Source: Desulforapulum autotrophicum (lineage in GTDB: Bacteria > Desulfobacterota > Desulfobacteria > Desulfobacterales > Desulfolunaceae). Taken from it: DNA of 64,000 nucleotides. Positions 32,103-52,949 of this stretch are shown piece by piece. Under the pieces are notes generated by a model. It did not search any database, was not told the origin of the DNA, and saw nothing but the letters and a program-made list of their open reading frames with translations. The stretch covers positions 15,074 through 79,073 of the forward strand of contig DYJE01000019.1 in the NCBI GenBank assembly GCA_020723285.1, given 5' to 3'. Position 1 is the first letter of the stretch. Each line of letters opens with the position of its first letter. The position numbers and the translations under genes are program-made.

Positions 32103-32426
32103 TATATTTTACACTTCCAAACACTTAATGTGGCCCATTACATCAAGGAGCGTATCAATGGAATTATTTCAATGTACCTGTTAATGAAGAAGGAGAAAAA
32201 TTTTTAAAGTCAATAACCAACATTGGCTGATGAGTTCAAAATCAATAATTATAAGTTATTTATCACCCCTGATTGTAATTTATACTTTATATTATACTGA
32301 AACTACAATATAATTGTATGGTTGCTAATGGTTATAGCAACGACAAACTTCTTCTGCGTTTCGCTTGATAGGTTCAGCAAAAAAAATAACCGCATTTGTG
32401 ATATTTTTAATTAATTTTTACGTTTT

Positions 32427-32440
32427 TTGATTTACGTCAA
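32427..32440 (+). promoter_or_regulatory. CRP/FNR-family (HcpR-like) box TTGATTTACGTCAA upstream of hcp
   Basis: TTGAT-N4-GTCAA palindrome, followed after exactly 22 nt by TATGTA (32463-32468), which is class-II geometry. Confidence 0.6.
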
Positions 32441-32580
32441 AGTATTTATTTGACCGGGTTTATATGTATAAAATTAAAATTTTTGATAAACTCGTTTCCG
32501 ATTTAGATATTGATGTAAATTTATCCAACACCAAAGCAGAAGATAACGGCATTCAACCCTATTAAACAAGGAGGCACGAC

Positions 32581-34242: not shown

Positions 34243-34266
34243 CCCAAACATATTGAAATAAAATAG

Positions 34267-34306
34267 TCCGCAGGTGAAACCAGGATTATGACCCTTCACC
34301 TGCGGA
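34267..34306 (+). terminator. 12-bp-stem hairpin after hcp
   Basis: TCCGCAGGTGAA ... TTCACCTGCGGA. No clear T-tract follows. Confidence 0.4.
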
Positions 34307-34456
34307 TCACACAGTGAAAAAAGTTTGTTTAGCCAACACGTGGCGAAAACATCACCCTCCGGATCAACCGACCCGCTCTTCCTGAGTTTTTTTACGGTCA
34401 TCGATGACCCTTAAAACGATCTATAAAAACGCCACATTTTCAAGGAGGTATTTGCC

Positions 34457-36697: not shown

Positions 36698-36736
36698 TCG
36701 AAGAGTTCTAAAGGGTTGGAAGATTGTAATACAAAG

Positions 36737-36769
36737 CCATGGGAGGCCACTTTACAGGACCTTCCATGG
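36737..36769. terminator. Hairpin between convergent norZ and nrfA
   Basis: CCATGGGAGG ... CCTTCCATGG, a 10-bp stem with one G-U pair. Confidence 0.35.
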
Positions 36770-36779
36770 CATGCCGCAA

Positions 36780-38402
36780 CTAATGAGTCTGCGTGTTTAT
36801 GGGTGTTGCGGATTTGGACGCTGTTTCATGACCGTCCGGCACTGATTTGACAGAGGCCTTTCCGATCTTCTTGTTCAGATCCCACATCAAAGGTGTCTTG
36901 GGCGATAGCGGAATATACTTGAACCAGGGATGTGTCGTCATGTGTTTCGGATCCATCTGGAGTTCCCGGCTGTGTTTCAGAATCGGGGGCACCCGGGTTT
37001 TGATATCTTCACTGATGGACTTGGCTATGGTGAACGATGTGGCTTTAACCGCCGTGTCCACGGCATTCTGGCTGAAACGCTGCGATGAGGCCAGGGTATC
37101 AAGTGCTTTTGAGGGATTGTGGAACCCCACACTGTTTTCAGCGGATACAAGATCCCAGAAAAATTGGCCTTTACGGCACCATTTTCTCGCATTTGTCATC
37201 AACTCGTTGTAATTATCAGGCCTTGGTCCTTTGTATTCTGATGCCATGCGAATGGCTTCATGGGCTTTGACAGAAATCTCCTGGGCCGCCAGAAGTTGAT
37301 TCCATACCTTGTTCTGGGTATAGAGTACACGTTGTTTCAAAAATTCAGGGGTTTTGTCCGTATGACACTGACGGCATGCGTTCATTTCAGGATCTTTCAA
37401 TGGAGACGTCCAGTGGTGATTGGATATTTTCTTTTTTCCGTCAAGGCGTGTGTAGCTCATATGACAATCGGCGCAGGTTACACCTGCTGAGCCATGAACA
37501 CCGTTAGACCACGTTTCGTATTCCGGGTGCTGGGCTTTCAGCATGGGAGTCTGTGACACCGGATGTACCCAATCGACGAAGTACCCTTCAAATCCCGGTG
37601 TTTTATTGTCTCCCTTATCAGAATAGTAGTTATACATGTCTTCAGGGTCCATTCCGTCTTTCCACGGGAACACAACCTTTTTGTACGGTCCGAAACTCTT
37701 GTCCTGAAAATAGTATTCCACATGGCACTGACCACAAACCAAGGCCCGTTGTTCATTTCTTGGGAGTTTTTCAAATTCCTTGTTCTGGCTTTTCAAATAA
37801 TCCTTCAACGGCACACTGTACAGATTAAGGGCCATGGTCTTTGGATCATGACAGTTGGCGCAACCGATGGTGTCGTCGTCCAGATCGACTTTTTCCCGGA
37901 ACTGATTGAAATCTTTCGCCCAGAAATCATCGCCCTCTTCTTTGAGAAAAGTGTTCATTTTGGCGGTCTTGCAGTTCATGCACGTAGCCGGAAGGCCCGC
38001 TTTTTCGCTATATCTATTGACCCGGTCAATGCTTAAAATATCTTTCATGGCATGGGTGTGGCCTCGCGCTTCACGGTATTCATAACTGAACGGATACCCA
38101 AGCCAGAGGTTTTTTAAATAAGGCTGAGCGTGTTTATACCCTTCGGGGAGAGGATTGACATTGTCATGTTTGTTGTATGGAACCGAACCCTTATACTCGG
38201 TCATGATCTCTGATTCGTTATTCCTTAGATACGTTTCATACTGAAAAGGGAAAAGGGCCTGAAAGGCTGAATTTCTGATTTCATCTGTATTCAAATTGGT
38301 GCTGTAGGTTGGGGGAATGGGTTCATTGGCTTTTGAACAACCTCCCAGGGTCGCCATCAGCAAAACACATAAGAACAAAACGATCATTCGAAGATTACAC
38401 AT
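36780..38402 (-). CDS. nrfA: Pentahaem cytochrome c nitrite reductase NrfA
   Basis: CMNCK (the Lys-ligated catalytic haem signature) plus CANCH, CGQCH, CADCH and CRQCH. Lipobox-like LGGCS. The start at 38402 or 38387 is ambiguous, and the track ORF extends to 38450. Confidence 0.9.
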   Translation of the reverse strand: MCNLRMIVLFLCVLLMATLGGCSKANEPIPPTYSTNLNTDEIRNSAFQALFPFQYETYLRNNESEIMTEYKGSVPYNKHDNVNPLPEGYKHAQPYLKNLWLGYPFSYEYREARGHTHAMKDILSIDRVNRYSEKAGLPATCMNCKTAKMNTFLKEEGDDFWAKDFNQFREKVDLDDDTIGCANCHDPKTMALNLYSVPLKDYLKSQNKEFEKLPRNEQRALVCGQCHVEYYFQDKSFGPYKKVVFPWKDGMDPEDMYNYYSDKGDNKTPGFEGYFVDWVHPVSQTPMLKAQHPEYETWSNGVHGSAGVTCADCHMSYTRLDGKKKISNHHWTSPLKDPEMNACRQCHTDKTPEFLKQRVLYTQNKVWNQLLAAQEISVKAHEAIRMASEYKGPRPDNYNELMTNARKWCRKGQFFWDLVSAENSVGFHNPSKALDTLASSQRFSQNAVDTAVKATSFTIAKSISEDIKTRVPPILKHSRELQMDPKHMTTHPWFKYIPLSPKTPLMWDLNKKIGKASVKSVPDGHETASKSATPINTQTH

Positions 38403-38874
38403 CAGCAGCGCTCCTTTTCGCAATGGGGATTTTAGGACTGTGTGGAACATGACGGTGGCAATCCGTACAATGTGCTTTAGACTGCATATTCACTTCTTTG
38501 ACCACGGTGGAATGGCACCGGAGGCAGTTTTCCTGAACAACCTCCATCGTGTTTTTTCCGGGATGAATGTAATCGGGAACCTGTTTTGTGGCTGTCACAA
38601 ACATGTCCCTTGCACCTTCTTTGGTTTTAAAAGGGATTTTCCGGATTATATCATGTGGCGCATGACATTCGTTGCAGGCCTGTTTACTGTGAACAGATTT
38701 GCTGTGGGACAATGCGGCTTCCGCCATGGAGTGGCATCCGCCGCAGAATGCCGCCTGGTCCGTTGCTGTCATGGCGCGGGCTGAACACAAGGTGATCACA
38801 GCACCTGCCGCAAACGGCAACAGAATCAAAAGCCAGGCCTTTTCTCCCTTCATTTTCTTCCATGATAATGCCAT
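38395..38874 (-). CDS. nrfH: NapC/NirT-family tetrahaem quinol dehydrogenase NrfH
   Basis: One TM helix and four CXXCH motifs (CGGCH, CNECH, CLRCH, CTDCH). The ATG at 38874 is preceded by AGGAGG. Confidence 0.9.
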   Translation of the reverse strand: MALSWKKMKGEKAWLLILLPFAAGAVITLCSARAMTATDQAAFCGGCHSMAEAALSHSKSVHSKQACNECHAPHDIIRKIPFKTKEGARDMFVTATKQVPDYIHPGKNTMEVVQENCLRCHSTVVKEVNMQSKAHCTDCHRHVPHSPKIPIAKRSAADV

Positions 38875-38959
38875 GGAGCCTCCTTTGTTTTGTTTGAAAC
38901 AATCAGGATTCCTACGAAATACAACCAAACAACCACCAACTGCTATAACACCTTGAATC

Positions 38960-39655
38960 TTAGTGCGGGAGCATAAGCCCGCAAAGAACATCGTGCATCA
39001 CCCGGTTGATACGTTCAAACCGTTCAGGCTCTGAAAGTATTTCATGTTCAGCCTGGACAAAATAACTCCCATCCAGATCGGACCCGCAATGGTTTATCAA
39101 AGCCCTTGCCGATTCCATGGTCGTTTCCAGATGAAACTGTAACCCCACAATTCGGTTATCTTTGATAAACCCCTGATGGTCACAGGCCATGCTCGACGCA
39201 AGCGGCGTGGCTCCTTGGGGGATTTCAAACCGGTCTCCATGCCAGTGAAACACATTGAGCTTTTCAGGAAAGCATCCCGCCAGTACCGTATTGGAGATCC
39301 TGGGATCGATGGATAGTGGAAACCATCCAATTTCCCGGTGTTTGTTTTTAGTGACGGATGCGCCCATCACCTCTGCGATCAACTGGGCTCCAAGACAGAT
39401 GCCCAGAATCATTTTCCCGCGAGCAATGGCGTGTTTGATGAAGATTTTTTCATCATGCAAAAAGGGGTATTCTTTTTCGTCGTATACCCCCATGGGGCCA
39501 CCCATGATGATGAGAAAATCAAACGCATCCATATCCGGCAGGCGGTCGCCTCGGTACATATGGCTCGATGTCATCTCATGGTGGCCTGATAAAAAAAATG
39601 GTTCCATACTCCCAAGGTCTTCAAAGGGAACGTGTTGCAGATGATGGACACGCAT
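38960..39655 (-). CDS. Class I glutamine amidotransferase-like protein
   Basis: Nucleophile elbow GICLGAQL and a later FHLE His/Glu region. Confidence 0.7.
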   Translation of the reverse strand: MRVHHLQHVPFEDLGSMEPFFLSGHHEMTSSHMYRGDRLPDMDAFDFLIIMGGPMGVYDEKEYPFLHDEKIFIKHAIARGKMILGICLGAQLIAEVMGASVTKNKHREIGWFPLSIDPRISNTVLAGCFPEKLNVFHWHGDRFEIPQGATPLASSMACDHQGFIKDNRIVGLQFHLETTMESARALINHCGSDLDGSYFVQAEHEILSEPERFERINRVMHDVLCGLMLPH

Positions 39656-39739
39656 ATCGAATTCCTTTCATATGTTTTAATGGTTTGGCTGAATATGTTC
39701 ATGAGTCCACCGAAGCTTTCGTGCCCATGTATATCATAT

Positions 39740-40303
39740 TTACACTTTTTTTCGGTATAAATCAGGGTAAAGTTTCATCGCACACTCGCGACAAAGCCCA
39801 TGGCTAAAATCGGCTTCGGAGTGTTTTTTAATATACCCTTCCATTCGGCTCCAATGCCCCTCTTCATCCTTTATGCGTTTGCATGATGAGCAAATCGATA
39901 ATAGCCCGCTCAAAATTTTGATATCTTCCAGGGCCTTTTCCCTCTGAAGAACTTCTATCTCCCTTTTTTGTTCAATCGTTTTTCTATGAAGTCCTATGGA
40001 GGCCGTTACCCATATTGCCAATAAAGAAATGGCCCTGTTGAAAATGACTTTCCACATGTCTGAGACCTGGGGTTTGTAAAAACACATGCCAATGGTAAAA
40101 AGGGATGAAATTACAGTAACAAAAATTGTAAACTCTTTTCGGGGTGCCCACAGAGAAAACAAGACAGCCACAATATAGAGTACTCCAACAGCAACACCAA
40201 GAGGAATGATGGCATCAAGAGACATAATAAAAATGATATAAAAAAAGCATATAAAATAAATTGAATAGTCGTTAAGGATTTTTTTGAGTCTCTGGACTGG
40301 CAT
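39740..40303 (-). CDS. 4-TM membrane protein with coiled coil and C-terminal CxxC...H...CxxC module
   Basis: Four hydrophobic helices, then ICSSCKRIKDEEGHWSRMEGYIKKHSEADFSHGLCRECAMKLY. Confidence 0.6.
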   Translation of the reverse strand: MPVQRLKKILNDYSIYFICFFYIIFIMSLDAIIPLGVAVGVLYIVAVLFSLWAPRKEFTIFVTVISSLFTIGMCFYKPQVSDMWKVIFNRAISLLAIWVTASIGLHRKTIEQKREIEVLQREKALEDIKILSGLLSICSSCKRIKDEEGHWSRMEGYIKKHSEADFSHGLCRECAMKLYPDLYRKKV

Positions 40304-40370
40304 GGATACCCCACCCTGTTTGAAATTTGATGTTCTTCACACTTTTTCAGATTAAGCACGCGCCACTTTT

Positions 40371-41423
40371 TTAACGGTTCTTTCCCATATGGGCAATAAA
40401 CATCCGGTATTGCTGGTCGGGAACGCTGCTTTTCCAATGCCCGGTAATGATGGCGGTATAGACCAGGATCAGGTATAAAGCGATAATCATAAGCCCCAGT
40501 TTTTTTTCCGTCCACCTCATTTTCAACCCGGTTGTTTTCAACATTAACGTTCCGTCAACCGGGCAACTGTCCACACAATCCATACAGCCGGTGCATTCCG
40601 GTGTTCTAACTTTTGGGATTTGCCCCACAAGGATATGATTCGGGCAGATGGCCGTACATTTACCGCATGCGATACATGATCCGTTATCCCTTGAAATATG
40701 TGTCGGGCCGGCATATGAAACAATCCCGGCCAGTGCCCCATAGGGGCAAAGATATCGGCACCAGAAATTCCGAACAAACAGGGAGAAACAGACGAGAAGG
40801 CTAAGGCAGATGAGAGTTGTTCCCGACATGTGGGTAAAAAACAACAGCATTCGCACATCGGACGTTTTATAGTAAAAACTATTGAGAAACGCATTGGTTT
40901 CAACAGTATTCATTTGTACAATAATCCATAGAAAAAACCCCAGAAAAATATATTTGACGCTTCTTAACGGCAGATCTACCCACCGTGGAAAAATGAAAGA
41001 GGGCATACCCCAATGATGGCCAAGCCTGAATATCCATTCCGACAAGGTGCCTACAGGGCAGAACCATCCGCAAAACGATTTGCTGAGCAGAAAAGAAGCC
41101 ACCAATGCGAATCCGAATATTACCATTGCCGCCGGATGAATACTGTCCCACTGAGCGGTGGTGATAAAATATTTCCAGCCCAGCAACGCACCAATGGGCA
41201 GGAAACCCTCAACGCCATGGGGTTTTGGAATGGTGATGGGCACTGCTTGCGCGGCTTGATGGACATACAAGGCGAATTGAACGCCTGTTGCAAGAGTCGC
41301 GATAAAAACACCCGTCTGGACCCATGACCGGACGCGGTGTCGATGAAACAATAGACTTAAGGTCTTTATCCGGCCACGATTCAAAGGTTGATTTTTTTTA
41401 TCGGAGATACCCATGACGTCCAT
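40371..41423 (-). CDS. NapH/MauN-type membrane polyferredoxin (quinol dehydrogenase-like)
   Basis: Two CX3CP motifs (CGWFCPVG, CRYLCPYG) in the membrane part, and two 4Fe-4S motifs (CIACGKCTAICP, CTGCMDCVDSCP). Confidence 0.75.
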   Translation of the reverse strand: MDVMGISDKKNQPLNRGRIKTLSLLFHRHRVRSWVQTGVFIATLATGVQFALYVHQAAQAVPITIPKPHGVEGFLPIGALLGWKYFITTAQWDSIHPAAMVIFGFALVASFLLSKSFCGWFCPVGTLSEWIFRLGHHWGMPSFIFPRWVDLPLRSVKYIFLGFFLWIIVQMNTVETNAFLNSFYYKTSDVRMLLFFTHMSGTTLICLSLLVCFSLFVRNFWCRYLCPYGALAGIVSYAGPTHISRDNGSCIACGKCTAICPNHILVGQIPKVRTPECTGCMDCVDSCPVDGTLMLKTTGLKMRWTEKKLGLMIIALYLILVYTAIITGHWKSSVPDQQYRMFIAHMGKNR

Positions 41424-41472
41424 GTCAATATCCTTTTGACCGTTATTTCATTCGTTCCATAGATTTTAACCG

Positions 41473-42009
41473 TTAAAGCCAGAACTCCGGATACCGCCTG
41501 CTTTTCGGCAGATTGTTCACCAGAAGGGCCACGAGAACCATAATGACCGCACCCATCCCCACGGGAACCACGGCGTAGAGATACCCCAGTGCGTGAATTT
41601 TTGAACTTCCGGTGACGGCGATCAGCGCTGTTGCACCACCCGGCGGATGGAGGGTTTTTGTGGCATGCATAAACGCGATGGCCGTTGCCACGGCAAGGGG
41701 AGAGGCAAACCACAGGTGGTTATGAAACAATTTGAATGCGGTGACTCCGACTATCGCGGAAATAATATGGCCGCCGATAACGTTTCTCGGCTGGGCCAGG
41801 GGGCTTCGAATCGCACCATAGACAAGCACGGCACTTGCCCCGAACGATCCGATGATCATAACAAGGTCACTTGTGTAGAACAGTTTGTCATCCAGATACG
41901 CCATGGGGATGATTCCCAAAAAAGCGCCGATCCATGACCAGAATATTTCAGAGACTTTAACACCCGGCGGGCTTTGGGTCGTTCCCTTCATTTTCGAGAA
42001 GTACTGCAT
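41473..42009 (-). CDS. HPP-family membrane protein (candidate nitrite channel/transporter)
   Basis: HPPGGATAL signature and 4-5 TM helices. Confidence 0.75.
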   Translation of the reverse strand: MQYFSKMKGTTQSPPGVKVSEIFWSWIGAFLGIIPMAYLDDKLFYTSDLVMIIGSFGASAVLVYGAIRSPLAQPRNVIGGHIISAIVGVTAFKLFHNHLWFASPLAVATAIAFMHATKTLHPPGGATALIAVTGSSKIHALGYLYAVVPVGMGAVIMVLVALLVNNLPKSRRYPEFWL

Positions 42010-42021
42010 GGCTGATTCCTT

Positions 42022-42630
42022 TCAAACATTATCTAGGCCGAAGGATTGCACGATATCCGAACGGGTTACGATGCCGCAGAGGTCTGAATTTTTATCAAGG
42101 ACCGGAACACGGTTGATTTTCTGGCAGTTAAAAATGGCCGCTATTTCGGAAAGCGGGGTGTTTTCATTTACCGTGATGGCTGGAGTTGTCATGATATCGC
42201 CGACCTTGCGGGTGTTTAACGAAGAGATCATGCAGCCGCTGTGATTCATGCACCGGGATAAGATGGCCATGAACGACTGGTTAACAGAGATACCGGCTTC
42301 GCGTAAAATATCTTTCTCAGAAAGAACCCCCACCACCTTGGAAAAAACATCCATCACCGGCAGACCGGTGATATTGTTTTCAGCCATGGTTCCCGCCGCG
42401 TCGCCAAGAAGGGCATCGATCCGGGTGTAAATCACCGGCCGACTCATGACATCTTTGGCTGTGCGTTTATTTGCCAAACGATTCAGCGCATGATGATAGG
42501 ATACTTTGTATATTTCGATGAAGTCTGCTGGTGTAATATCAATATATCCGTCAATCGCGGACATGGCTTCAAGAATATCCGCCTCTGAAATATCAATAGA
42601 GGATTGTTTGAACGTTTTTTCTGAATCCAT
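42022..42630 (-). CDS. CBS-pair domain protein
   Basis: Two CBS repeats (VMSRPVIY...ITGLPVMD and IMTTPAITV...INRVPVLD). The ATG at 42630 follows AAGGA. The track start at 42717 lies inside the predicted -10 hexamer. Confidence 0.75.
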   Translation of the reverse strand: MDSEKTFKQSSIDISEADILEAMSAIDGYIDITPADFIEIYKVSYHHALNRLANKRTAKDVMSRPVIYTRIDALLGDAAGTMAENNITGLPVMDVFSKVVGVLSEKDILREAGISVNQSFMAILSRCMNHSGCMISSLNTRKVGDIMTTPAITVNENTPLSEIAAIFNCQKINRVPVLDKNSDLCGIVTRSDIVQSFGLDNV

Positions 42631-42740
42631 GTTTATCCTTTTTAAGTTTTTTCCAATTTGGAGTTTGGTTTTTTTAGTAGAAGCGTCATAATTCAACAAT
42701 AATGCACGGTAGATCATAGTCGCATTAGCTTGTATTGTAT

Positions 42741-42754
42741 TTGACTTAAATCAA
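42741..42754 (-). promoter_or_regulatory. CRP/FNR-family box (minus-strand reading TTGATTTAAGTCAA), promoter-proximal copy
   Basis: Differs from the hcp box at one central base. It is followed after exactly 22 nt by TATGAT (42718-42713). Confidence 0.6.
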
Positions 42755-42793
42755 TTTGGGGAAGAATCAGTGTCGCATTAGCTTGTATTGTAT

Positions 42794-42807
42794 TTGACTT
42801 AAATCAA
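42794..42807 (-). promoter_or_regulatory. Second, duplicated copy of the CRP/FNR-family box
   Basis: An identical 14-mer in the second 53-bp unit. The downstream hexamer there is ACTGAT. Confidence 0.5.
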
Positions 42808-42905
42808 TTTGGGGAAGAATCAGTCAGGGAACACTCTGAAGCTGAATACAGTTATTGCAAATAGAATGCGAGTTTAAATAGGTCTTGGTTCATAATGGCT
42901 AAAAA

Positions 42906-43598
42906 CTAATGATGGTTGAATATTATTTTCAATACCTTTGGAATAAAAAAAGAACCGATAAAAAGAAATACCGATAAGAAGACGTTCCAGTTCAAAAGGC
43001 CGCTCAGGTCACCGCTGGCTAAAACGTTTTTAACCGTCCCCACGAAAAAAGTGAACACAAAAGTCCCCACGATAATCCCCAGAGCCGTTCCCGCAGTGTA
43101 ATCCCTGAAACGGACTTTTGTGAGGCCCATGCCGAAGTTCATGGGCGTGAAAGGGAAATACACCAGACGAAGGTAAAGAACCGTGGCAAAACCGTTGCGT
43201 TCAATGGCGTCGTCGTACTGTTTCAGTTTTCCGCCGATGAGGCTTTCCGCGAAATCCCGGCCCAGGTAACGCCCGATGAAAAAGGCGAGGCTTGCGCCGA
43301 TCATGGCCCCGGTCCAGACCCAGAGGAACCCCCAATAAGGGCCGAACACGGCAGCCCCGATGGCGGCGAGCAGGGTGCCCGGAAGAAAAAGGCAGACCCC
43401 CGCCGCATAAATCAGGACATAAACAAGGGGAGCCCACAACCCGGCAGAGTCAAGAAGAAGGGCGAGCCGTTCTGCCGTCACATGGTTTTTAAGGGGTGAA
43501 AAACGGAGCAGCGTCACCGCCGCGATCATAAAGCAAACGAGAAGCGCCGCTTTGATCCATGGCCGTTTGGCCCTTTGTTTCACATTGAGATCAGGCAT
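42906..43598 (-). CDS. TVP38/TMEM64 (DedA-related) family membrane protein
   Basis: Multi-TM protein whose sequence (FLPGTLL, GRYLGRDF) I recognise as typical of the family. Confidence 0.7.
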   Translation of the reverse strand: MPDLNVKQRAKRPWIKAALLVCFMIAAVTLLRFSPLKNHVTAERLALLLDSAGLWAPLVYVLIYAAGVCLFLPGTLLAAIGAAVFGPYWGFLWVWTGAMIGASLAFFIGRYLGRDFAESLIGGKLKQYDDAIERNGFATVLYLRLVYFPFTPMNFGMGLTKVRFRDYTAGTALGIIVGTFVFTFFVGTVKNVLASGDLSGLLNWNVFLSVFLFIGSFFIPKVLKIIFNHH

Positions 43599-43610
43599 TA
43601 TGGGCCGCCT

Positions 43611-43928
43611 TTATTTTCCAAGAATTCGGTTCAAAAGCCCTTTTTTTTCGAGATGGGGTTCGGGAAGCCCGAGATGTCGGCAGATGCAGACTTCGACCTC
43701 GTGTTCGGAGATGTCGGCCCCTTCGACAACGACTTCGTCCCCCACCATGACCGCCGGGGCTACCGGAAGATCCAGATCGAAGTATTCGTCAGTCTGGTAC
43801 TCATCCTTGGGTTTGGATGTCACGGTGATGTCAACGTCATACTTTCCGCCCAGCCTGGGCATCATCTTTTTGAAGTTCTTTCAAGGTCTTCCGTTGGGTT
43901 CATTCAGAAAAAAACGGATATTCAGCAT
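43611..43928 (-). CDS. Candidate small thioredoxin-fold selenoprotein (in-frame TGA at 43881-43883)
   Basis: Strong RBS AAGGAGAACACC-ATG at 43928. Reads MLNIRFFLNEPNGRP-U-KNFKKMMPRL... in frame with the track ORF 43611-43865, which itself has no RBS. The C-terminal LPVAPAVMVGDEVVVEG resembles the cis-Pro/beta3-beta4 region of small thioredoxin-like proteins. Confidence 0.6.
43848..43860 (-). other. SECIS-like hairpin GCCCA-GGC-UGGGC, 20 nt after the UGA
   Basis: Read directly from the minus strand. Confidence 0.4.
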
Positions 43929-43940
43929 GGTGTTCTCCTT

Positions 43941-45704
43941 TTATGGTTTTGTGCTTTCTTTCGAAATGCGGTTCATGTGGACCAGGAATTTTTCAGGGGG
44001 TAAATAATCCACCAGCCTCAGATCATTTCGTTCCTCACCGGCAGAATCGAGGAACACCAGGGTGGGGACGCCCTTGATGCCGTACTGTTTAAGCAACTGT
44101 TCGTGATTCGGATCGCCACCCTGGGTTACATCAACTTTGACCATGGTGAACGTGTCTTTTGTTTTTCTGACCACGTCGGGGTGGTGGAACGTCACCGTGT
44201 CAAGTTCGCGGCACGGGGTGCACCAGTCGGCGTAAAAATCAATGATGACAGGGCGTTTTTCTGCTGCGGCTTTTTGAAGAACAGCCTCGGAGTATGGCTG
44301 CCAGGCTACACCTGGTCCTTTCATCATCCATGCGGTGATCCACATCGAAGCGGTGATAAGACACACACAACCAGTGGCGGCTTTGACAATTGAGAACACC
44401 TTCGACCCTGTTTCTGTTTTTTCCAGCCAGCCCAGGTGAATGCCAGCGGATAATGCGAGGGCCGCAGGCAGAAGAACTTTCAGCCCTTCGGGGAGGACTG
44501 GTCGGATGAAATGGGCCGCCATGCCCACAAGAACCCAGCCCATGAGTTTTCGGACCCAGATCATCCAGCCGCCTGCGCGGGGAAGTCGTTGAAGCTGACC
44601 GGAGAAGAGGGCAAGGATGAAAAGGGGAAGCCCTAGTCCAAGGCTCAATGTGAAAAATACAAGAAAACCCATGAAGGCGCTGCCCATACCTGCCACCCAG
44701 GTCAGAAGTCCCAGCACAAAGGGACCGATGCAGGGGGCGGCAACAACGCCGATGGTCAGCCCCATGAACAGGCTTCCGAAATAGCCGCTGTACGAGCGAC
44801 CGGCCATCCGGGTCATGGCTCCGGGCAGGCGAAGTTCCCAGAATCCGAAAAGACTGGTGGAGAACAGGATGAGAAAACCAGCGACAAAAGAAAGCACCAG
44901 GGGATTCTGGAGCATTGACCCCATCAGGCCGCCGGTCAGGGCCGCAGCCACCCCAAGGATGGAATTGGTGAGGGCGAGGCCCAAAAGGTAGCAGAGGCCG
45001 TGGAGAACAAGGACAAACTGACCTGGCCTGCTGTCGGCTGTTTTGCCTCCAAAAAACGACACAGTGATGGGGATCATGGGATAGACACACGGGGTTAAAT
45101 TCAGGGCGAGACCGCCGAAAAAGATGCCCAGAAGCGTGAGAAAAAGGCCCCAGCCTTTGACAGACCTTCCGGAATACGATCCCGATGCATCTTTCGGTGA
45201 CAGGGCAAGATCCACGGGGGTTGTTCCATAGGGCATGCCACGCTGCTGCCATTCTGGGAAACCATAGGGATCGCGGTAAACGTGACGGTAACCGAGTTTA
45301 ACGGCCACACGGGCCGCCGAGTCGCTGCGGACTCATGTAAGGCCCGCTCAGTAGAACACAATGCCCCGGTTTTTGTCCGGACCCAGAAATTTCCCGAGGG
45401 ATTCAGACTTACGCCACCTGGCCCACCCGGTGGGTTCCATGGGGAAATTCACCGCGCCCTTCATGTGGCCGGTCCGGAATTCCCATTCCTGGCGAGTGTC
45501 CACCAGAAGCAAACCGGACGGATTCTCCCGGTATTTTTGAATGAGTTCGTCGGTTTTAAGGATCGTGTAGCCGCCCCTTGCCGCCTCGGCGAGCACATCG
45601 TCCCATGTGGCCTGTTTCGGTGTGGCCGGGCGCTGGATAGACCAGACGGAAGCCACCGCAACGGCCACTGCGAGTAACGTCAGTAAAAAGGATGTTTTTT
45701 TCAT
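43941..45704 (-). CDS. Candidate selenoprotein: signal peptide - rhodanese (Y-U-AGLT-U-VRS) - DsbD/CcdA membrane domain - thioredoxin fusion, with two in-frame TGA codons (45348-45350 and 45333-45335)
   Basis: Track ORFs 45348-45704 and 43941-45308 are in the same frame, separated only by TGA-GCG-GGC-CTT-ACA-TGA. The rhodanese fold continues across both TGAs (IVFY|U|AGLT|U|VRSDSAARVAVKLGYRHVYRDPYGFPEWQQRGMPY). The DsbD-beta motifs TPCVYPMIP and AAPCIGPF and the C-terminal WCTPC thioredoxin motif are present. Confidence 0.65.
45302..45316 (-). other. SECIS-like hairpin after the second rhodanese UGA
   Basis: CGGCC-CGUGU-GGCCG starting 16 nt after the UGA. It overlaps the lower stem of the previous structure, so the two are alternative folds. 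Confidence 0.35.
45311..45345 (-). other. SECIS-like stem-loop after the first rhodanese UGA
   Basis: GGGCC-UUACAU-GAGUC-CGCAGC-GACUC-GGC-GGCCC. The upper stem starts 13 nt after the UGA. Confidence 0.4.
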
Positions 45705-45730
45705 TTCATTCGGCCTCCGGATTGTTTTTT

Positions 45731-46060
45731 TTAGTGAGTCCAGTCCATGATCTTGAAATCTTCACCCAGTTTTTTTTGAACAGCATCCCGGATCATTGAA
45801 AAATGTGGGCAAGGCATACCGATTGGGTTTCCCTTTGAAATGCATGATGCAAAAACAATAGCTTCGGCCCCACGATCAACCATGAGTTTTGCCCTTTGAA
45901 TGGATCGTTTGCCTGGACATCCGCCACAACTGACAAAACCTATGATTTCAACCGGTCCGGTGGCTTCAAACGCCATTTTCCCAGTGGAAGCGACTTTAAA
46001 ATCCGTCGTACCGGGGCACATATCCTCGGTCTGTTGACACCTGATAATTCCAACTTTCAT
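45731..46060 (-). CDS. CGGC-domain protein
   Basis: VSCGGCPGKR signature plus additional conserved Cys residues. RBS AGGAGA. Confidence 0.7.
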   Translation of the reverse strand: MKVGIIRCQQTEDMCPGTTDFKVASTGKMAFEATGPVEIIGFVSCGGCPGKRSIQRAKLMVDRGAEAIVFASCISKGNPIGMPCPHFSMIRDAVQKKLGEDFKIMDWTH

Positions 46061-46063
46061 CGA

Positions 46064-46726
46064 TCATCTCCTAAGTGTATTTTCAAACAAAAGAGTCACA
46101 AAACCTTCGTCCAGCGATTCTTTTCCAAGTTCATTCATGCCTTCTGGGGGCGGTAGAATGCTGGATTGTTCCTTTCTGAACAAGAAACCGGCTTCCTCTG
46201 CCATGGCTTTGACCTCATCCCTTTGATAGAATCTGGCGTGTCTGTAAATAACATGCCCTTTCTTGCCTCTTGCGGAATGGTACAGCCCCCAGGCGCTGTT
46301 TGACGGAACAAAGCCGATGATAAGGCGTCCCCGCCTTTTGAGCACACGGCTGCATTCACGAAGCACCCGTAAAGGATCATGGAGAAAGCAGAGGGTGCAC
46401 ACCATCAGCAGTCCGTCAAAAGAAGTATCTTTGAACGGCAGGTGTTCTCCCATGGCCTGGCAGGTCATAATGCCCCTACTGGACGCGATCATTGCCATGG
46501 ATCGCGAAGGCTCCACACTATGGCCGATGCCGAATGCCTGAGCGAAACGTCCTGAACCCGAACCCACCTCCAGCCATTTTCCCGTCGGGACCCCGAGGAT
46601 CTGATTCAGGGCTTCACGTTCCTGTGAAAAAATGAAAGACCCTTTTTCAGAGTCAAACCAGTGGTCGTATTCTTCCGCAAAATCGTCAAAAGGGTTGTTC
46701 CAAATCGACATGCCGCACGATTCCAC
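46064..46726 (-). CDS. Class I SAM-dependent methyltransferase
   Basis: Motif I LEVGSGSGRF and a Methyltransf_11-like layout. The start may instead be the ATG at 46711. Confidence 0.75.
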   Translation of the reverse strand: MESCGMSIWNNPFDDFAEEYDHWFDSEKGSFIFSQEREALNQILGVPTGKWLEVGSGSGRFAQAFGIGHSVEPSRSMAMIASSRGIMTCQAMGEHLPFKDTSFDGLLMVCTLCFLHDPLRVLRECSRVLKRRGRLIIGFVPSNSAWGLYHSARGKKGHVIYRHARFYQRDEVKAMAEEAGFLFRKEQSSILPPPEGMNELGKESLDEGFVTLLFENTLRR

Positions 46727-46728
46727 GA

Positions 46729-47037
46729 TTACCCCCGTCCCCAGAGCGGATCGTCACCGAACCGTTCTTGCCAAAGTTCTTCGGGAGTCAGGTTTTCACC
46801 CACGGACACTTCGGAAAAAGAAAAACGATAATTGGCGCAGTACTCCGTGATGGTCTTGTACGCGGCCACGATCTTTCTGGTCATGTCCGCACAAGTTTCC
46901 GGGTTGTCCCGACATCGGTCCGGATGCCATTTCGCCAGCATGGCCCGGTACGCCGATTTGACGGTTTTCAGGCTGGCTGTTTCAGGAAGACCAAGGATCG
47001 TCCGCGCTTCCGTGATCTCCTGGTATTTTTTCAGCAT
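46729..47037 (-). CDS. J-domain (DnaJ-like) protein
   Basis: LGLPETASLKTVKSAYRAMLAKWHPDR, including the HPD tripeptide. Confidence 0.75.
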   Translation of the reverse strand: MLKKYQEITEARTILGLPETASLKTVKSAYRAMLAKWHPDRCRDNPETCADMTRKIVAAYKTITEYCANYRFSFSEVSVGENLTPEELWQERFGDDPLWGRG

Positions 47038-47492
47038 GATTCGTCCCGTCGTCCTTCCCGCTCAAGCTTCGATATCATAAACGTCGCGCCTCTTTGGGAC
47101 AGCCCCAGGGTTTCGGCCAGGGTTTTCACATCCAGCGAACCCTTCTCTCGCCTGAGCGAAAGGACTTCGTCCTCAAGTTCCTCGAACCAGTCCTCGAACA
47201 GGACAAGCAGGTCCGGGTCGGTTATGGCCGACAACTGCCTGGATTGGGCCACTTTGTCCACCAGACTCTGGCACATCTTTGTTGGGTCGATACCTTCGCC
47301 CATGCATTCAGCGATTCAGAGGTGGACCATTCCGGACATCTTGTCATCGCCAGAATCGTCCAGAAGATTCATGAAAAACCGAGTTGCCGCGTCTTTGTCC
47401 ATCACTGAGAAAAGCTTTTTCAGCGTACTTCCGATGTCCTTCAGCGCCTGTTCCGGGTCCATGTTTTCGACGATGTTCAGAATATTTTTCAT
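47031..47492 (-). CDS. Candidate selenoprotein with a U-x3-C motif (in-frame TGA at 47316-47318) and a winged-helix-like C-terminus
   Basis: RBS AAGGAAG precedes the ATG at 47492. 58 codons are followed by TGA and then IAEC-MGEG..., in frame with track ORF 47031-47303, which has no RBS. The gene starts 19 nt after the arsR stop. Confidence 0.6.
47284..47301 (-). other. SECIS-like hairpin GGGCGA-AGGUA-UCG(A)CCC, 14 nt after the UGA
   Basis: Read directly. It has a GGU-containing apical loop and a single bulged A. Confidence 0.4.
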
Positions 47493-47511
47493 TTTTGTTT
47501 GACTTCCTTGT

Positions 47512-47847
47512 TTAAAACGTCTTCCGTGCTTTCAACAGATCTTCCGCCACGGTGTTCAGCGACCGGATCACGTCCAGTATTTTTTTGTCTGCCAGCTCGT
47601 AAAAAACAAAAGGGCCGCTTCGTTCTACATTTAATAGAATCGACCGTTTCAATTCCTTGAGATGATGCGACACAAGAGGCTGTGAAATACCAATTTCTTC
47701 CACGATCTGACCCACGGATTTCTTGCCTTGGCCAACGTAAAGCAAAATACGTAGTCGGTTTGGATCGGAAAGGGATTTAGCCAACAGAGAAACGCATTGA
47801 AGATAATCGTCATTTAGCATTTTTGCTTTCTTGATCAAAAAAATCAT
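47512..47847 (-). CDS. ArsR/SmtB-family transcriptional regulator
   Basis: DPNRLRILLYV...VGQIVEEIGISQPLVSHHLKELK winged-HTH signature. The canonical ELCVCDL metal-binding site is absent. Confidence 0.85.
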   Translation of the reverse strand: MIFLIKKAKMLNDDYLQCVSLLAKSLSDPNRLRILLYVGQGKKSVGQIVEEIGISQPLVSHHLKELKRSILLNVERSGPFVFYELADKKILDVIRSLNTVAEDLLKARKTF

Positions 47848-47873
47848 AAGGTTGATATCAGCTTGATATAAAC

Positions 47874-47893
47874 ATATAAATATTCATTTATAT
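47874..47893. promoter_or_regulatory. Operator-like palindrome ATATAAAT-ATTC-ATTTATAT upstream of arsR
   Basis: 8-bp perfect arms, 27 nt upstream of the arsR ORF start. An adjacent TTGATAT direct repeat lies at 47852-47869. Confidence 0.35.
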
Positions 47894-48074
47894 TATTAAA
47901 CAAGCCAAGTCAATATCCTGTGGAGTTCTTCACTCCATAGAGTGATTTTGCCCTAAATTTTTAATGGAACCCAATTGAAAGATGTAAATATGCGCCGTAT
48001 AAGCAAATACTCAGGGGTTTCTCGTGAAGAGGAGTTGGTTCTGGTTCGCTAAATTTATTGTATTTCAAATGAAC

Positions 48075-48249
48075 TTTTCACACAAAGCGTGATTCGGGAT
48101 AGGAGTTTTCACGATTCCGGTGGTAAATTTCACACAAAGCGTGATTCGAAAATTAAGCTTTTACGATCACAGATTTTTTTGATAATCGGATTTGCACGAT
48201 CCGGGAAAGAGCAGTTTGCACGGCTACAACGAAAAGTTTTCACGATTCC
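48075..48249 (+). repeat. Array of seven same-orientation TTT(T/G)CAC(G/A)-type repeats at the right edge of the insert
   Basis: Copies start at 48075, 48106, 48128, 48159, 48191, 48215 and 48237, spaced 22-32 bp apart. 48075-48127 and 48128-48180 form an imperfect 53-bp tandem. The last copy supplies the new fdhA stop codon. Confidence 0.7.
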
Positions 48250-50864
48250 CAGCAGTTACCTTCCCTGAAATGAAACGCCATCCACACCATGCCGGCCGGA
48301 ACTTCGTCGGTGATCCGGGCTTTGACCGAAACAGCGCCGCGCCGTGAGGAAACCCTGATGACCTCCCCGTCGGCGATGCCCATGCGACGGGCATCATCGG
48401 CCGAGATGTCGGCGGTCTCCTCACCGAGAAGCTCGTTCAGCCCTTGGGTTCTGCCGGTCTGGGTCCGGGTGTGGTAATGGTACAGGCGTCGGCCTGTGGA
48501 GAGAACCAAGGGGTATTCCGTGTCCGGCACTTCCGCAGGCGGGGTCCACACTGCCGGGGTGATGTTGCCTTTGCCGCAGGTGAAATTCCCGTTCAGGTGG
48601 AGAATGGCCGTACCGGGGTGTTCTTTGGTCGGACAGGGCCACTGGAGGCCGTCTCCCTCGATCCGCCCAAACGTGATTCCGGCGAAAATCGGGCAGAGCG
48701 CGGCGATCTCCCTGTCCCAGATGTCCTTGGAACTGGCGGAGGTCCAGGTGTGGCCCATGCGTCTTGCAATCTCCCGGAATATCCACCAGTTGGGCCGAGC
48801 CTGGCCCGGCGCGGGACAGGCTGCCCTAACGCGGCTCACCCTGCGCTCGCAGTTGGTGAACGTGCCGTCATCCTCGCTCCAGGCCGCAGACGGAAACACC
48901 ACATGGGCGAACCGTGTGGTTTCCGTTTCGAAGATATCCTGGCAAACCAGGAATTCCGCGCTGGAGAGTTCATGTTCCACCTTGGCGATATGGGGTTCCG
49001 CGCTGGCCAGGTTTTCGCCGAAAATGTACAGCGCCCGGATCTTCTTCGTCACCAGCCCTTCGAGCATCTGGGGGATCATCAGGCCGTTTTTATCCGGAAG
49101 GTCCTGAACGTTCCATGCGTCTTCGAATTTTTTCCGGGCTGCTGCGTCGGTCACGCTCTGGTATCCGGGAAACACGTTGGGCAGCGCCCCCATGTCACAG
49201 GCTCCCTGCACGTTGTTCTGCCCGCGTAAGGGATTCACCCCGCCGCATTCCACGCCCAGGTTCCCCAGAAGCATCTGGAGATTGGCCACCGACGCCACGT
49301 TGTCGCGGCCGCAGGTGTGTTCGGTGAGGCCCAGGGTGTACATCAGCATCATGGGTTTCACCGATGCGGCCATACGGGCTGTCCTGACAATCAGATCGCT
49401 GGGAATGCCACAGATTTCAGCCGCTTTTTCCGGCGTGTAATCCATGACGGTTTCCCTGAGTTTTTCAAAGTTCACCGTGTGGTTTTCGATGAATGCCTTG
49501 TCGTACAGGTTTTCCGTGATGAGGACGCGCATCACGCCGTTCAGAAACGCGATGTCCGTGCCCACTTTGATCTGGACGAACAGGTCGGCAAACCGGGCCA
49601 GGGTGTGTTTTCTCGGATCGACCACAATCAGTTTCGCACCCTGACGCACAGCGTTCTTGACAAACGTCGACGCCACGGGATGGGCCTCGGTCATGTTGGC
49701 TCCGATGACAAAGAACATCTTGGCGTTTTTCACTTCCTTCAGGCTGTTGGTCATGGCCCCGGATCCGAAGGTGGTGGCGAGCCCGGCCACGGTGGGCGCG
49801 TGGCAGACCCTGGCGCAGTGGTCGATGTTGTTGGTCTTGAACACGGCCCTGAACAGCTTCTGCATCTGGTAGGAATCTTCGTTGATGCTCCGGGCGCAGC
49901 TGACCCCGGCCACGGCATCCGGCCCATGCTCGGCAATGATCCGTGAGAAGGTGGACGCCACAAGATCAAGGGCCTCGTCCCAGGACGCGGGTTCAAGCAC
50001 GCCGTTTGTCCGGATCAGCGGGGTTTTCAGGCGGTCTGGGGAACTGATGAAATCATAGCCGAAACGCCCTTTGACACACAGGCGGCCCTGGTTGGGTTCG
50101 GCATTTTCCACGGCTGAAATATGAACGATTTTTCCATTCTTCACATGAAGCATCTGCTGGCAGCCCACCCCGCAGTACGGGCAGGTGGTTCTGACGCTTT
50201 GGGTCTCGCACAGCCGGGGCTTCTGAAAAGCGTCTTTCGGGACCAGAGCGCCGACGGGACAGGCCTGGATGCACTGGCCGCAGAACACACAGTCCGAATC
50301 CTTGAGGGCCATGTCGCCCTTGGCGATGATTTTCGTTTTCGCCCCACGGTATCCGAAGTCGATGGCGTCGTTCACCTGGATTCCCCGGCAGGCCTGGACA
50401 CACCGGCCGCAGAGAATGCATTTGGCGAAATTGCGAACGATCAGGGGGTTTACCGCTTCCATGGGGTAGGACGTGCGGGTGTCCGGGTATCTTCCGCCCT
50501 TGACCTGATAGCGGTAAGCCAGCTCCTGAAGCCGGCAGCCTCCGGACGCCGGGCAGACGAGACAGTCGTCGTGTCTGCCTGATGAAAGCATCAGTTCGAC
50601 GATGGTCTTTCGGGACTGGATGACCACCGGGGAGTCGGTACGGACCACCATACCTTTGGCCGCCGGAACAGTGCAGGCCGTCATCAGACTTCGCGCGCCC
50701 TCGACCTCCACCACGCAGATCCGGCAGGCCCCCGTGGGTGTGGTGTCTTTCAGGTGGCAAACCGTAGGGATGTCTATACCCGCGTTGCGGGCGGCTTCAA
50801 GTATGGTCTGACCCGGACTGAACACCACGTCCCGGCCGTTGATCACCAACAGGTTTTCGCTCAT
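48240..50864 (-). CDS. fdhA: Formate dehydrogenase alpha subunit (NuoG-like Fe-S N-terminus plus molybdopterin domains), Cys-type, 3'-truncated by insertion
   Basis: 2Fe-2S and 4Fe-4S motifs at the N-terminus. The active-site region HCARVCHAPTVAGL has Cys where Sec-type enzymes have U. The protein ends ...MAFHFREGN-CWES-stop and lacks the conserved NxLT...PEFK.CAV..EK tail, which is found at 32004-32102. Confidence 0.85.
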   Translation of the reverse strand: MSENLLVINGRDVVFSPGQTILEAARNAGIDIPTVCHLKDTTPTGACRICVVEVEGARSLMTACTVPAAKGMVVRTDSPVVIQSRKTIVELMLSSGRHDDCLVCPASGGCRLQELAYRYQVKGGRYPDTRTSYPMEAVNPLIVRNFAKCILCGRCVQACRGIQVNDAIDFGYRGAKTKIIAKGDMALKDSDCVFCGQCIQACPVGALVPKDAFQKPRLCETQSVRTTCPYCGVGCQQMLHVKNGKIVHISAVENAEPNQGRLCVKGRFGYDFISSPDRLKTPLIRTNGVLEPASWDEALDLVASTFSRIIAEHGPDAVAGVSCARSINEDSYQMQKLFRAVFKTNNIDHCARVCHAPTVAGLATTFGSGAMTNSLKEVKNAKMFFVIGANMTEAHPVASTFVKNAVRQGAKLIVVDPRKHTLARFADLFVQIKVGTDIAFLNGVMRVLITENLYDKAFIENHTVNFEKLRETVMDYTPEKAAEICGIPSDLIVRTARMAASVKPMMLMYTLGLTEHTCGRDNVASVANLQMLLGNLGVECGGVNPLRGQNNVQGACDMGALPNVFPGYQSVTDAAARKKFEDAWNVQDLPDKNGLMIPQMLEGLVTKKIRALYIFGENLASAEPHIAKVEHELSSAEFLVCQDIFETETTRFAHVVFPSAAWSEDDGTFTNCERRVSRVRAACPAPGQARPNWWIFREIARRMGHTWTSASSKDIWDREIAALCPIFAGITFGRIEGDGLQWPCPTKEHPGTAILHLNGNFTCGKGNITPAVWTPPAEVPDTEYPLVLSTGRRLYHYHTRTQTGRTQGLNELLGEETADISADDARRMGIADGEVIRVSSRRGAVSVKARITDEVPAGMVWMAFHFREGNCWES

Positions 50865-50897
50865 GGATCGGTTCTCCTGCTCAACGAATATTGGGGT

Positions 50898-52832: not shown

Positions 52833-52857
52833 TAACCATCCGTTATAGTGGCATCAA

Positions 52858-52949
52858 TGGAAGGGGCAAGGGGAATCGAACCTCCTCTTTGCGTTTCAGG
52901 CAAAGCCGACGGTTTTGAAGACCGCGGGGCGCCCAGCACCATTGCCCCT
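52858..52949 (-). tRNA. selC: tRNA-Sec (anticodon UCA)
   Basis: 92 nt with anticodon loop CUUCAAA, a long variable arm (CGGCUUUGCCUGAAACGCAAAGAGG), T-loop GGTTCGATTCC, an 8-bp acceptor stem AGGGGCAA/TTGCCCCT and an encoded CCA. Folded by eye only. Confidence 0.8.

What the first reader, a model, noticed from the sequence alone, without database searches (positions are those of the whole stretch)
42713..42824. Perfect 53-bp tandem duplication doubles a near-identical CRP/FNR box upstream of CBS-HPP
Seen: two perfect 53-bp units (42719-42771 and 42772-42824). Read on the gene strand, each contains TTGATTTAAGTCAA, which differs from the hcp box at one central base. The proximal box is followed after exactly 22 nt by TATGAT (42718-42713). 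This is the same geometry as at hcp. The distal copy is followed by ACTGAT. Zero divergence between the units suggests a recent duplication. Inference: the duplication adds a second regulator site at -94.5 relative to a class-II promoter, and could change induction strength. The track's ATG at 42717 is probably part of the -10, with the real start at 42630.
Basis: partly seen in the sequence, partly recalled or inferred. Interest (0 to 1): 0.6.

Follow-up and report, generated by a model that had tools for sequence, protein, structure and literature searches.

The report
Duplicated regulator site in a nitrite-stress promoter
One strain of an uncultured sulfate-reducer-like bacterium carries a real, very recent 53-bp tandem duplication that doubles the binding site of an NO/nitrite-responsive (HcpR-type) activator in front of a nitrite-related operon. 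All related strains sampled have a single copy, so this is an ordinary but clean natural promoter variant whose effect on expression is untested.

Summary
Bases 42719-42771 and 42772-42824 are identical 53-bp units. Each holds TTGATTTAAGTCAA on the gene strand, one base different from the box upstream of hcp.

The duplication is not an assembly artefact. In run X1, junction-spanning 31-mers sit at about 1x depth and within-unit 31-mers at about 2x. Eleven other metagenome runs and three independent contigs carry the same unit as a single copy.

The box fits the published HcpR motif for non-Desulfovibrio deltaproteobacteria (wyTTGACnnnnGTCAArw). It is conserved upstream of CBS-HPP gene pairs across many Desulfobacterota: an exact match in 17 of 78 genomes, about 22-fold enriched. 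A TA-starting -10-like hexamer most often lies 22 nt downstream, which is class-II geometry. Homologue lengths, the Shine-Dalgarno sequence and an 88% relative with TACAAT all support the start at 42630 rather than 42717.

The second site would then be centred near -94.5, on the same helix face. In E. coli, an extra FNR site at -85 to -95 represses, whereas tandem CRP sites synergise, so the direction of any effect is open. No transcription start site or expression data exist.

Side finding: the surrounding ~16 kb (hcp, qNOR, nrfHA, CBS-HPP) looks like a widely shared island.

Interest is modest.

The parts
42772..42824 (-). distal (upstream) copy of the 53-bp unit
   Evidence: TRF, 100% identity; pattern search
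42719..42771 (-). proximal (promoter) copy of the 53-bp unit; skipped in one-copy alleles
   Evidence: TRF; contigs of 11 runs join 42718 to 42772
42794..42807 (-). distal HcpR/FNR-type box TTGATTTAAGTCAA; centre would lie at about -94.5
   Evidence: the position relative to the start site is inferred
42741..42754 (-). proximal HcpR/FNR-type box TTGATTTAAGTCAA; centre would lie at about -41.5
   Evidence: same box at -124 from the ATG in 99% relatives
42713..42718 (-). predicted -10 hexamer TATGAT, 22 nt after the proximal box; contains the ATG of the over-long 231-aa ORF
   Evidence: TACAAT at the same place in the 88% relative L084; 'TA' peak at offset 22
42766..42771 (-). ACTGAT after the distal box: a poor -10 (lacks A at position 2), so probably not a second promoter
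   Evidence: inference from the sigma-70 -10 consensus
42705..42707 (-). predicted transcription start (not mapped)
   Evidence: inference: 6-8 nt downstream of the -10
42636..42640 (-). Shine-Dalgarno AAGGA for the ATG at 42630
   Evidence: sequence
42022..42630 (-). CBS-pair protein, 202 aa (true start 42630)
   Evidence: Pfam CBS 2.6e-30; homologue lengths 199-206 aa
41473..42009 (-). HPP-family membrane protein (putative nitrite transporter family)
   Evidence: Pfam TM_HPP 4e-62; adjacent to the CBS gene in 79 of 80 genomes; an RNA contig spans the junction
40371..41423 (-). NapH-like membrane 4Fe-4S protein
   Evidence: Pfam Fer4_5 and others
39740..40303 (-). membrane protein with a C-terminal four-Cys motif; no Pfam family
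38960..39655 (-). class-I glutamine amidotransferase-like protein
38395..38874 (-). nrfH (NapC/NirT cytochrome c); start taken at the ATG after GGAGG
36780..38450 (-). nrfA, cytochrome c552 nitrite reductase; possibly the last gene of the same transcription unit
   Evidence: Pfam 1.5e-121; no intergenic terminator-like site between the genes
32427..32440 (+). sister box TTGATTTACGTCAA upstream of hcp (32581-34242)

Best explanation
This is a real, very recent, lineage-specific 53-bp tandem duplication inside the activator-dependent promoter of a nitrite/NO-stress operon. The operon starts with the CBS and HPP genes and is probably followed by a NapH-like Fe-S protein, a membrane protein, a GATase-like protein and nrfHA. 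The ancestral promoter has one HcpR-type (CRP/FNR family) box centred about 41.5 bp upstream of the start site, which is the class-II activation position, and a -10 of TATGAT. The duplication leaves that promoter and its first 17 upstream bases untouched. It adds an identical second box 53 bp (5.05 helical turns, same face) further upstream, at about -94.5. The copied '-10' becomes ACTGAT and is probably dead, so no second promoter is made. The expected consequence is a second activator dimer bound in tandem, changing the level or the dose-response of induction by NO or nitrite. The direction is unknown, and both directions have precedent in E. coli. Shown here: the duplication, its read support, its rarity, the conservation of the box and spacing, and the true start codon. 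Inferred: the identity of the regulator, the start site, and any expression effect.
For: The duplication is exact. X1 junction unitig depth is 10.6 and within-unit depth 22.5, against flanks of 12.5-12.8; the ratio of 2.1 fits two copies. The one-copy allele is present in X2-X7, X10, X13-X15 and X20, and in L001, L002 and L089. The box equals the published HcpR motif of non-Desulfovibrio deltaproteobacteria (PMC1274295; PMC545781) and resembles D. gigas HcpR1 sites at hcp and nrfA (PMC4534486). The same box type lies upstream of hcp in this window and in many related loci. An exact box is found upstream of the CBS gene in 17 of 78 genomes, and a box with at most 1 mismatch in 29 of 78. That is 0.66 per kb against 0.03 per kb elsewhere. 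The 22-nt spacing to a TA-starting hexamer is conserved. No sigma-70 -35/-10 pair is present. An HPP gene is NO-induced in an operon with hcpR1 and a 4Fe-4S protein in D. desulfuricans (PMC5701242). HPP proteins are nitrite transporters in cyanobacteria (cited in PMC7438415).
Against: No CRP/FNR-family gene lies in the window, so the regulator is assigned by motif only. No transcription start or expression data exist: RNA-run contigs either cover only coding parts or span the whole intergenic region and may be DNA. About half of the CBS-HPP loci surveyed lack the box, so regulation is not universal. A single sample carries the two-copy form, so it may be a neutral, transient variant. A minority of one-copy genomes in X1 cannot be excluded, because all its k-mers are shared with the two-copy form.
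Confidence: 0.75

Rival explanations
1. The duplication is real but functionally neutral: a transient slippage or repair product in one population, with no measurable effect on expression.
For: It is seen in only 1 of 12 informative runs. No other CBS-HPP promoter among about 85 loci has a tandem copy. The proximal promoter, and its upstream context to about -65, is unchanged.
Against: It places a perfect high-scoring site (23.3 bits) on the same helix face, at a distance where extra FNR or CRP sites have strong effects in E. coli. In X1 it is the majority or only allele.
Confidence: 0.3
2. Assembly artefact: the second copy was created by the assembler.
For: Short perfect tandem repeats can be mis-assembled, and the X1 contigs break at the repeat.
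Against: An independent unitig build of X1 contains all 30 junction-spanning 31-mers at about 1x depth and the within-unit 31-mers at about 2x. Those junction words cannot exist without a head-to-tail junction in the reads.
Confidence: 0.03
3. The boxes are bound by a different CRP/FNR-family sensor (an FNR-, DNR- or NnrR-like protein) rather than by an HcpR orthologue.
For: TTGAT-N4-ATCAA-like palindromes are shared by FNR, DNR and HcpR1 (PMC1274295). The regulator gene is not in the window.
Against: The same box precedes hcp here and in many related genomes, which is the defining target of HcpR. The relatives are strict anaerobes of the group for which this motif was assigned to HcpR.
Confidence: 0.12
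4. The distal copy creates a second, independent HcpR-dependent promoter, giving two start sites 53 nt apart.
For: The distal box has the same 22-nt spacer, followed by a hexamer ending in GAT.
Against: ACTGAT lacks the T1 and A2 of the -10 consensus, and class-II promoters depend on a good -10 element (established knowledge).
Confidence: 0.05

Closest known systems
HcpR regulon of non-Desulfovibrio deltaproteobacteria (motif wyTTGACnnnnGTCAArw; Rodionov et al. 2004, 2005)
   Same: The same palindrome lies upstream of hcp. The regulon is known to extend to nrfHA, ferredoxins and other nitrogen-oxide genes, and the sites sit at activator positions.
   Different: The CBS-HPP pair is not named as a regulon member in the papers read. 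The regulator gene was not found in the window. This promoter has two identical sites in tandem.
E. coli yfiD promoter and synthetic tandem-FNR promoters (Green 1998; Barnard 2003, as summarised in PMC11264516)
   Same: A class-II site near -41, plus a second site of the same factor near -93.5, about five helical turns upstream.
   Different: In E. coli the upstream FNR site down-regulates. Here the factor is a different family member and the effect is untested. The E. coli sites are old and diverged, not a fresh duplication.
CRP class-III promoters with tandem CRP sites (own knowledge: Busby and Ebright; Belyaeva 1998)
   Same: Two dimers of one activator on the same face, with the downstream one at -41.5.
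   Different: With CRP the sites act synergistically through the second alpha-CTD. Whether HcpR has the needed activating region is unknown.
Desulfovibrio desulfuricans 27774 Ddes_0524-0528 (HPP, 4Fe-4S protein, wrbA, nimA, hcpR1), NO-induced (PMC5701242)
   Same: An HPP gene followed by a 4Fe-4S protein gene, under nitrosative-stress control and linked to HcpR.
   Different: No separate CBS gene is reported there, the regulator is encoded in the operon, and Desulfovibrio HcpR uses other motif variants.

Membership tests
HcpR (CRP/FNR) regulon site, delta-proteobacterial FNR-like type | 14-bp palindrome matching TTGACnnnnGTCAA, with T/C allowed at position 5 as in published sites | tested here: met
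   TTGATTTAAGTCAA occurs twice and TTGATTTACGTCAA at hcp. The consensus comes from PMC1274295. Published sites include TTGAT variants.
HcpR (CRP/FNR) regulon site, delta-proteobacterial FNR-like type | Same motif upstream of hcp in the same genome | tested here: met
   Box at 32427-32440, 141 nt before the hcp ATG. PWM scores are 20.2 and 23.3, against 16.7 or less elsewhere.
HcpR (CRP/FNR) regulon site, delta-proteobacterial FNR-like type | Site conserved upstream of orthologous genes in other genomes | tested here: met
   17 of 78 loci have an exact box and 29 of 78 a box with at most 1 mismatch, about 22-fold over the rest of the loci. Many of the remaining hits precede hcp.
HcpR (CRP/FNR) regulon site, delta-proteobacterial FNR-like type | An HcpR1-clade regulator encoded in the genome (Ser/Pro instead of Arg180 in the recognition helix) | not testable with these tools
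   No CRP/FNR homologue was found in the 64-kb window by tblastn with E. coli CRP and FNR. The rest of the genome is not available.
HcpR (CRP/FNR) regulon site, delta-proteobacterial FNR-like type | Induction by NO or nitrite that depends on the regulator | not tested
   This needs an experiment. The only support is indirect: HPP is NO-induced in D. desulfuricans.
Class-II activator-dependent promoter | Activator site centred near -41.5, overlapping the -35 region, with a -10 element 22 nt after the 14-mer | tested here: inconclusive
   The spacing to TATGAT is exactly 22 nt. The 22-nt spacing is kept in the 88% and 63% relatives (23 nt in the 65% relative), and 'TA' peaks at offset 22. No -35 element is present. 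The transcription start is not mapped.
Tandem same-factor promoter (yfiD-like or class III) | A second site of the same factor on the same helix face, about -90 to -95 | tested here: met
   Centre-to-centre distance is 53 bp, or 5.05 turns. This holds only in the two-copy allele, and occupancy is not tested.

The most novel reading that the evidence does not exclude
The duplication is an adaptive cis-regulatory retuning that arose after a ~16-kb nitrogen-oxide stress island moved into a new host backbone. The island (about 32.1-48.3 kb) carries hcp, qNOR, nrfHA and CBS-HPP but no regulator of its own. Doubling the HcpR site would compensate for a different level or affinity of the resident HcpR, changing expression of the HPP nitrite-transport and NrfHA module.
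Probability: 0.12. Interest if true: 0.55.

Novelty: new member of a known kind. Interest (0 to 1): 0.3.

Why it matters
The locus offers a natural one-site versus two-site allele pair of an HcpR-dependent promoter, with all other bases identical. That makes a ready-made test of how tandem sites act for this little-studied NO-sensing branch of the CRP/FNR family: repression as with FNR, or synergy as with CRP.

It also adds comparative evidence that the widespread CBS-HPP gene pair belongs to the nitrosative-stress regulon of many Desulfobacterota. This supports a nitrite-related role for bacterial HPP proteins.

Beyond that, it is an ordinary type of mutation in an ordinary type of promoter.

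Tried and rejected
- **Regulator in the window:** I looked for a CRP/FNR regulator by Pfam scans of about 40 ORFs and by tblastn with E. coli CRP and FNR. None was found. The CRP-like hits next to HPP in L045, L047 and L008 turned out, where inspected (L045), to be a cNMP-binding domain of a Ser/Thr kinase, not a transcription factor.
- **Transcription start from RNA runs:** all runs are stored as contigs. The 'METAGENOMIC RNA-Seq' runs span the whole intergenic region and are uninformative. True metatranscriptomes cover only coding parts.
- **RNA families:** an Rfam search of 42300-43100 found nothing.
- **Stand-alone promoter:** the sigma-70 promoter scan found none.
- **Dispersed repeat or mobile element:** rejected, because the unit is unique in the window.
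- **Slippage at ATCA microhomology:** rejected, because the junction carries GT, not TA.
- **Backbone-closer strains:** runs X39-X42 gave no coverage of the locus.
- **Barnard 2003 (PMC225037):** the paper is not held, so it is cited only through the summary in PMC11264516.

Full report
**The observation**

The window contains an exact two-copy tandem array of a 53-bp unit at 42719-42824. Tandem Repeats Finder reports 100% matches, no indels and 2.0 copies. The bases on either side break the repeat, so the borders are exact and the junction has no microhomology. The unit occurs nowhere else in the 64 kb, even with three mismatches.

Read on the - strand (the gene strand), the unit is ACTGATTCTTCCCCAAA | TTGATTTAAGTCAA | ATACAATACAAGCTAATGCGAC. 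The only other exact match to TTGAYNNNNRTCAA in the window is TTGATTTACGTCAA at 32427-32440, 141 nt upstream of hcp. It differs at one central base. A weight matrix built from orthologous sites scores the three boxes at 23.3, 23.3 and 20.2 bits. The next best hit (16.7) lies inside a coding region.

The proximal box is followed after exactly 22 nt by TATGAT (42718-42713), and the distal one by ACTGAT. The hcp box is followed after 22 nt by TATGTA, although TATAAA four bases further on is an alternative.

**Is the duplication real?**

Run X1 holds 96-100% of the sampled 31-mers of every part of the window that I queried. Logan's independent unitigs of X1 break at the repeat in the way a true duplication predicts:
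- a 60-nt unitig at 42742-42801, which is exactly the 30 junction-spanning 31-mers, at depth 10.6;
- a 53-nt unitig of the within-unit 31-mers at depth 22.5;
- flanking contigs at depth 12.5-12.8.

The depth ratio of 2.1 fits two copies, not three. A minority of one-copy genomes in X1 cannot be excluded, because that allele has no private k-mers.

**How common is it?**

Contigs from eleven other runs all join 42718 directly to 42772, which is the one-copy form:
- X2, X3 and X4;
- X5, X14, X20 and X10;
- X6, X7, X13 and X15.

These runs come from groundwater, wastewater, biofilm, soil and a synthetic community. They also share SNPs at 42600 and 42826.

Independent contigs L001 and L002 (Logan, 99% CBS protein) and L089 (JGI, 98%) are also one-copy, with a unit identical to the window's. 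An 88%-identical relative (L084-L086) has one copy as well. The duplication is therefore recent and, so far, private to the X1 lineage.

**What lies downstream**

All of these genes are on the - strand:

| Coordinates | Gene or product |
|---|---|
| 42022-42630 | CBS-pair protein |
| 41473-42009 | HPP-family membrane protein |
| 40371-41423 | NapH-like membrane 4Fe-4S protein |
| 39740-40303 | small membrane protein with a C-terminal four-Cys motif |
| 38960-39655 | GATase-like protein |
| 38395-38874 | nrfH |
| 36780-38450 | nrfA |

No terminator-like site lies between these genes. A metatranscriptome contig spans the CBS-HPP junction. On the other strand lie hcp and a qNOR.

The CBS-HPP pairing is found in 79 of 80 related genome loci. 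HPP proteins transport nitrite in cyanobacteria and chloroplasts (Maeda 2014, cited in PMC7438415). In Desulfovibrio desulfuricans, an HPP gene followed by a 4Fe-4S protein gene is NO-induced in an operon with hcpR1 (PMC5701242).

**The start codon**

Most homologues are 199-206 aa long and align from the methionine at 42630. AAGGA lies 5 nt (42631-42635) upstream of that ATG. In the 88% relative, the hexamer corresponding to TATGAT is TACAAT, so the upstream ATG at 42717 is not conserved while a -10-like hexamer is. The 231-aa reading is therefore an over-extension.

**The box**

Rodionov et al. assigned the FNR-like palindrome wyTTGACnnnnGTCAArw (atTTGAccnnggTCAAat) to HcpR in Desulfotalea, Desulfuromonas and Geobacter. 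Its targets include hcp, ferredoxins and nrfHA (PMC1274295; PMC545781). D. gigas HcpR1 sites at hcp and nrfA have the same TTGAY-N4-RTCAA form (PMC4534486).

I examined 78 genomes with at least 150 nt of sequence upstream of their CBS gene:
- 17 have an exact box there, and 29 have one with at most one mismatch.
- That is 0.66 exact boxes per kb, against 0.03 per kb in the remaining 741 kb of those loci.
- Many of the remaining hits lie just upstream of hcp.

The flanks of the boxes are not conserved between families, so this is site conservation rather than shared ancestry of the whole region.

Among 27 non-redundant sites, a 'TA' dinucleotide peaks 22 nt after the box: 11 sites, against about 2-3 at other offsets. 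The three nearest relatives have TACAAT and TATCCT at 22 nt and TATGGA at 23 nt. No -35/-10 pair is detectable. Together this fits a class-II, activator-dependent promoter with a start near 42706 and a 76-nt leader. The start site itself is not mapped.

**What the duplication does to the promoter**

The proximal box, its 17 upstream bases, the spacer and the -10 are unchanged. A second identical box is placed 53 bp (5.05 turns) upstream, at about -94.5 and on the same face. Its copied -10 is ACTGAT, which lacks the critical A at position 2, so a second promoter is unlikely.

Precedent in E. coli points both ways:
- At yfiD (FNR sites at -40.5 and -93.5), and at synthetic promoters, an upstream FNR site between -85 and -95 represses a class-II FNR promoter (Green 1998 and Barnard 2003, as summarised in PMC11264516).
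- Tandem CRP sites at similar spacing act synergistically (own knowledge).

HcpR clusters with DNR/FNR-like proteins, so down-regulation or a reshaped dose-response is at least as likely as enhancement.

**Limits**

- No CRP/FNR gene is present in the window, so the regulator is inferred from the motif and its hcp target.
- About half of the CBS-HPP loci lack the box.
- Only one sample carries the two-copy allele, so neutrality is a serious rival.

**Side finding**

Contigs from X2, X7, X10 and X15 match the window at 95-99.8% identity from about 32101 to about 48255, and lose similarity beyond those points. Backbone stretches on either side (15000-16400 and 51000-52400) are held only by X1, and the nearest SelB protein is 65% identical. 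The shared segment has 49.1% G+C, against 54.3% and 55.9% in the flanks. It carries no tRNA, integrase or terminal repeats that I could find.

It looks like a regulator-less nitrogen-oxide stress island that is shared between different genomic backbones. The two-copy promoter is seen in the one backbone that differs.

**Verdict**

The feature is a clean natural cis-regulatory variant of a known promoter type in a known regulon. It is of modest interest, and the functional effect is untested.

Noticed in passing
window 32101-48255: This ~16-kb segment carries hcp, qNOR, nrfHA, GATase, NapH-like, HPP, CBS, DedA, DsbD, CGGC, methyltransferase, DnaJ-like and ArsR genes. It is shared at 95-99.8% identity with contigs from many groundwater, wastewater and soil metagenomes. 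Both flanks are found only in run X1. G+C is 0.49 against 0.54 and 0.56 in the flanks. No integrase, tRNA or border repeats were found. It is a possible horizontally shared nitrosative-stress island without its own regulator.
   Followed up: partly
window 43094-48009: The strain in run X7 joins 43093 directly to 48010. It therefore lacks part of DedA plus the DsbD, CGGC, methyltransferase, DnaJ-like and ArsR genes. Other carriers (L001/L002; X5, X6, X13, X14) have different sequence upstream of the promoter, from about 42855 or 42915, so the promoter lies next to a recombination hot spot.
   Followed up: partly
window 39740-40303 (-): A 187-aa membrane protein with no Pfam match ends in a four-Cys motif (CSSCKRIKDEEGHW...FSHGLCRECA). 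It is conserved next to HPP and GATase in the 88% relative.
   Followed up: no
L012, L022, L029, L068, L073 (upstream of the CBS gene): A Desulfobulbales-like subgroup has an extended site ATGACnnAAGTCAATTACC and a conserved TACCAT about 39 nt after the box. This suggests a different promoter geometry or an extra element.
   Followed up: no
L048 5006 and 5109; L054 476 and 562: Other genomes have two HcpR-type boxes 103 and 86 bp apart. In L054 they lie between a CRP-family gene and hcp. Natural two-site HcpR promoters therefore exist, but these are not fresh duplications.
   Followed up: no
window 48181-48260: Three short direct repeats of the form TTTGCACGATCC, GTTTGCACGGCT and TTTTCACGATTCC lie at the right border of the shared segment. 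X15 has an insertion there containing the same TTTTCACGATTCC word.
   Followed up: no
window 20031-22172 (+): This gene encodes a chemoreceptor with CZB and C-terminal hemerythrin domains. An internal near-match to the box (ATGACCCAGGTCAA at 20469, 16.7 bits) is probably chance.
   Followed up: no
window 48240-52949 (-): A formate-dehydrogenase-like molybdopterin oxidoreductase, selB and tRNA-Sec (52858-52949) are clustered.
   Followed up: no
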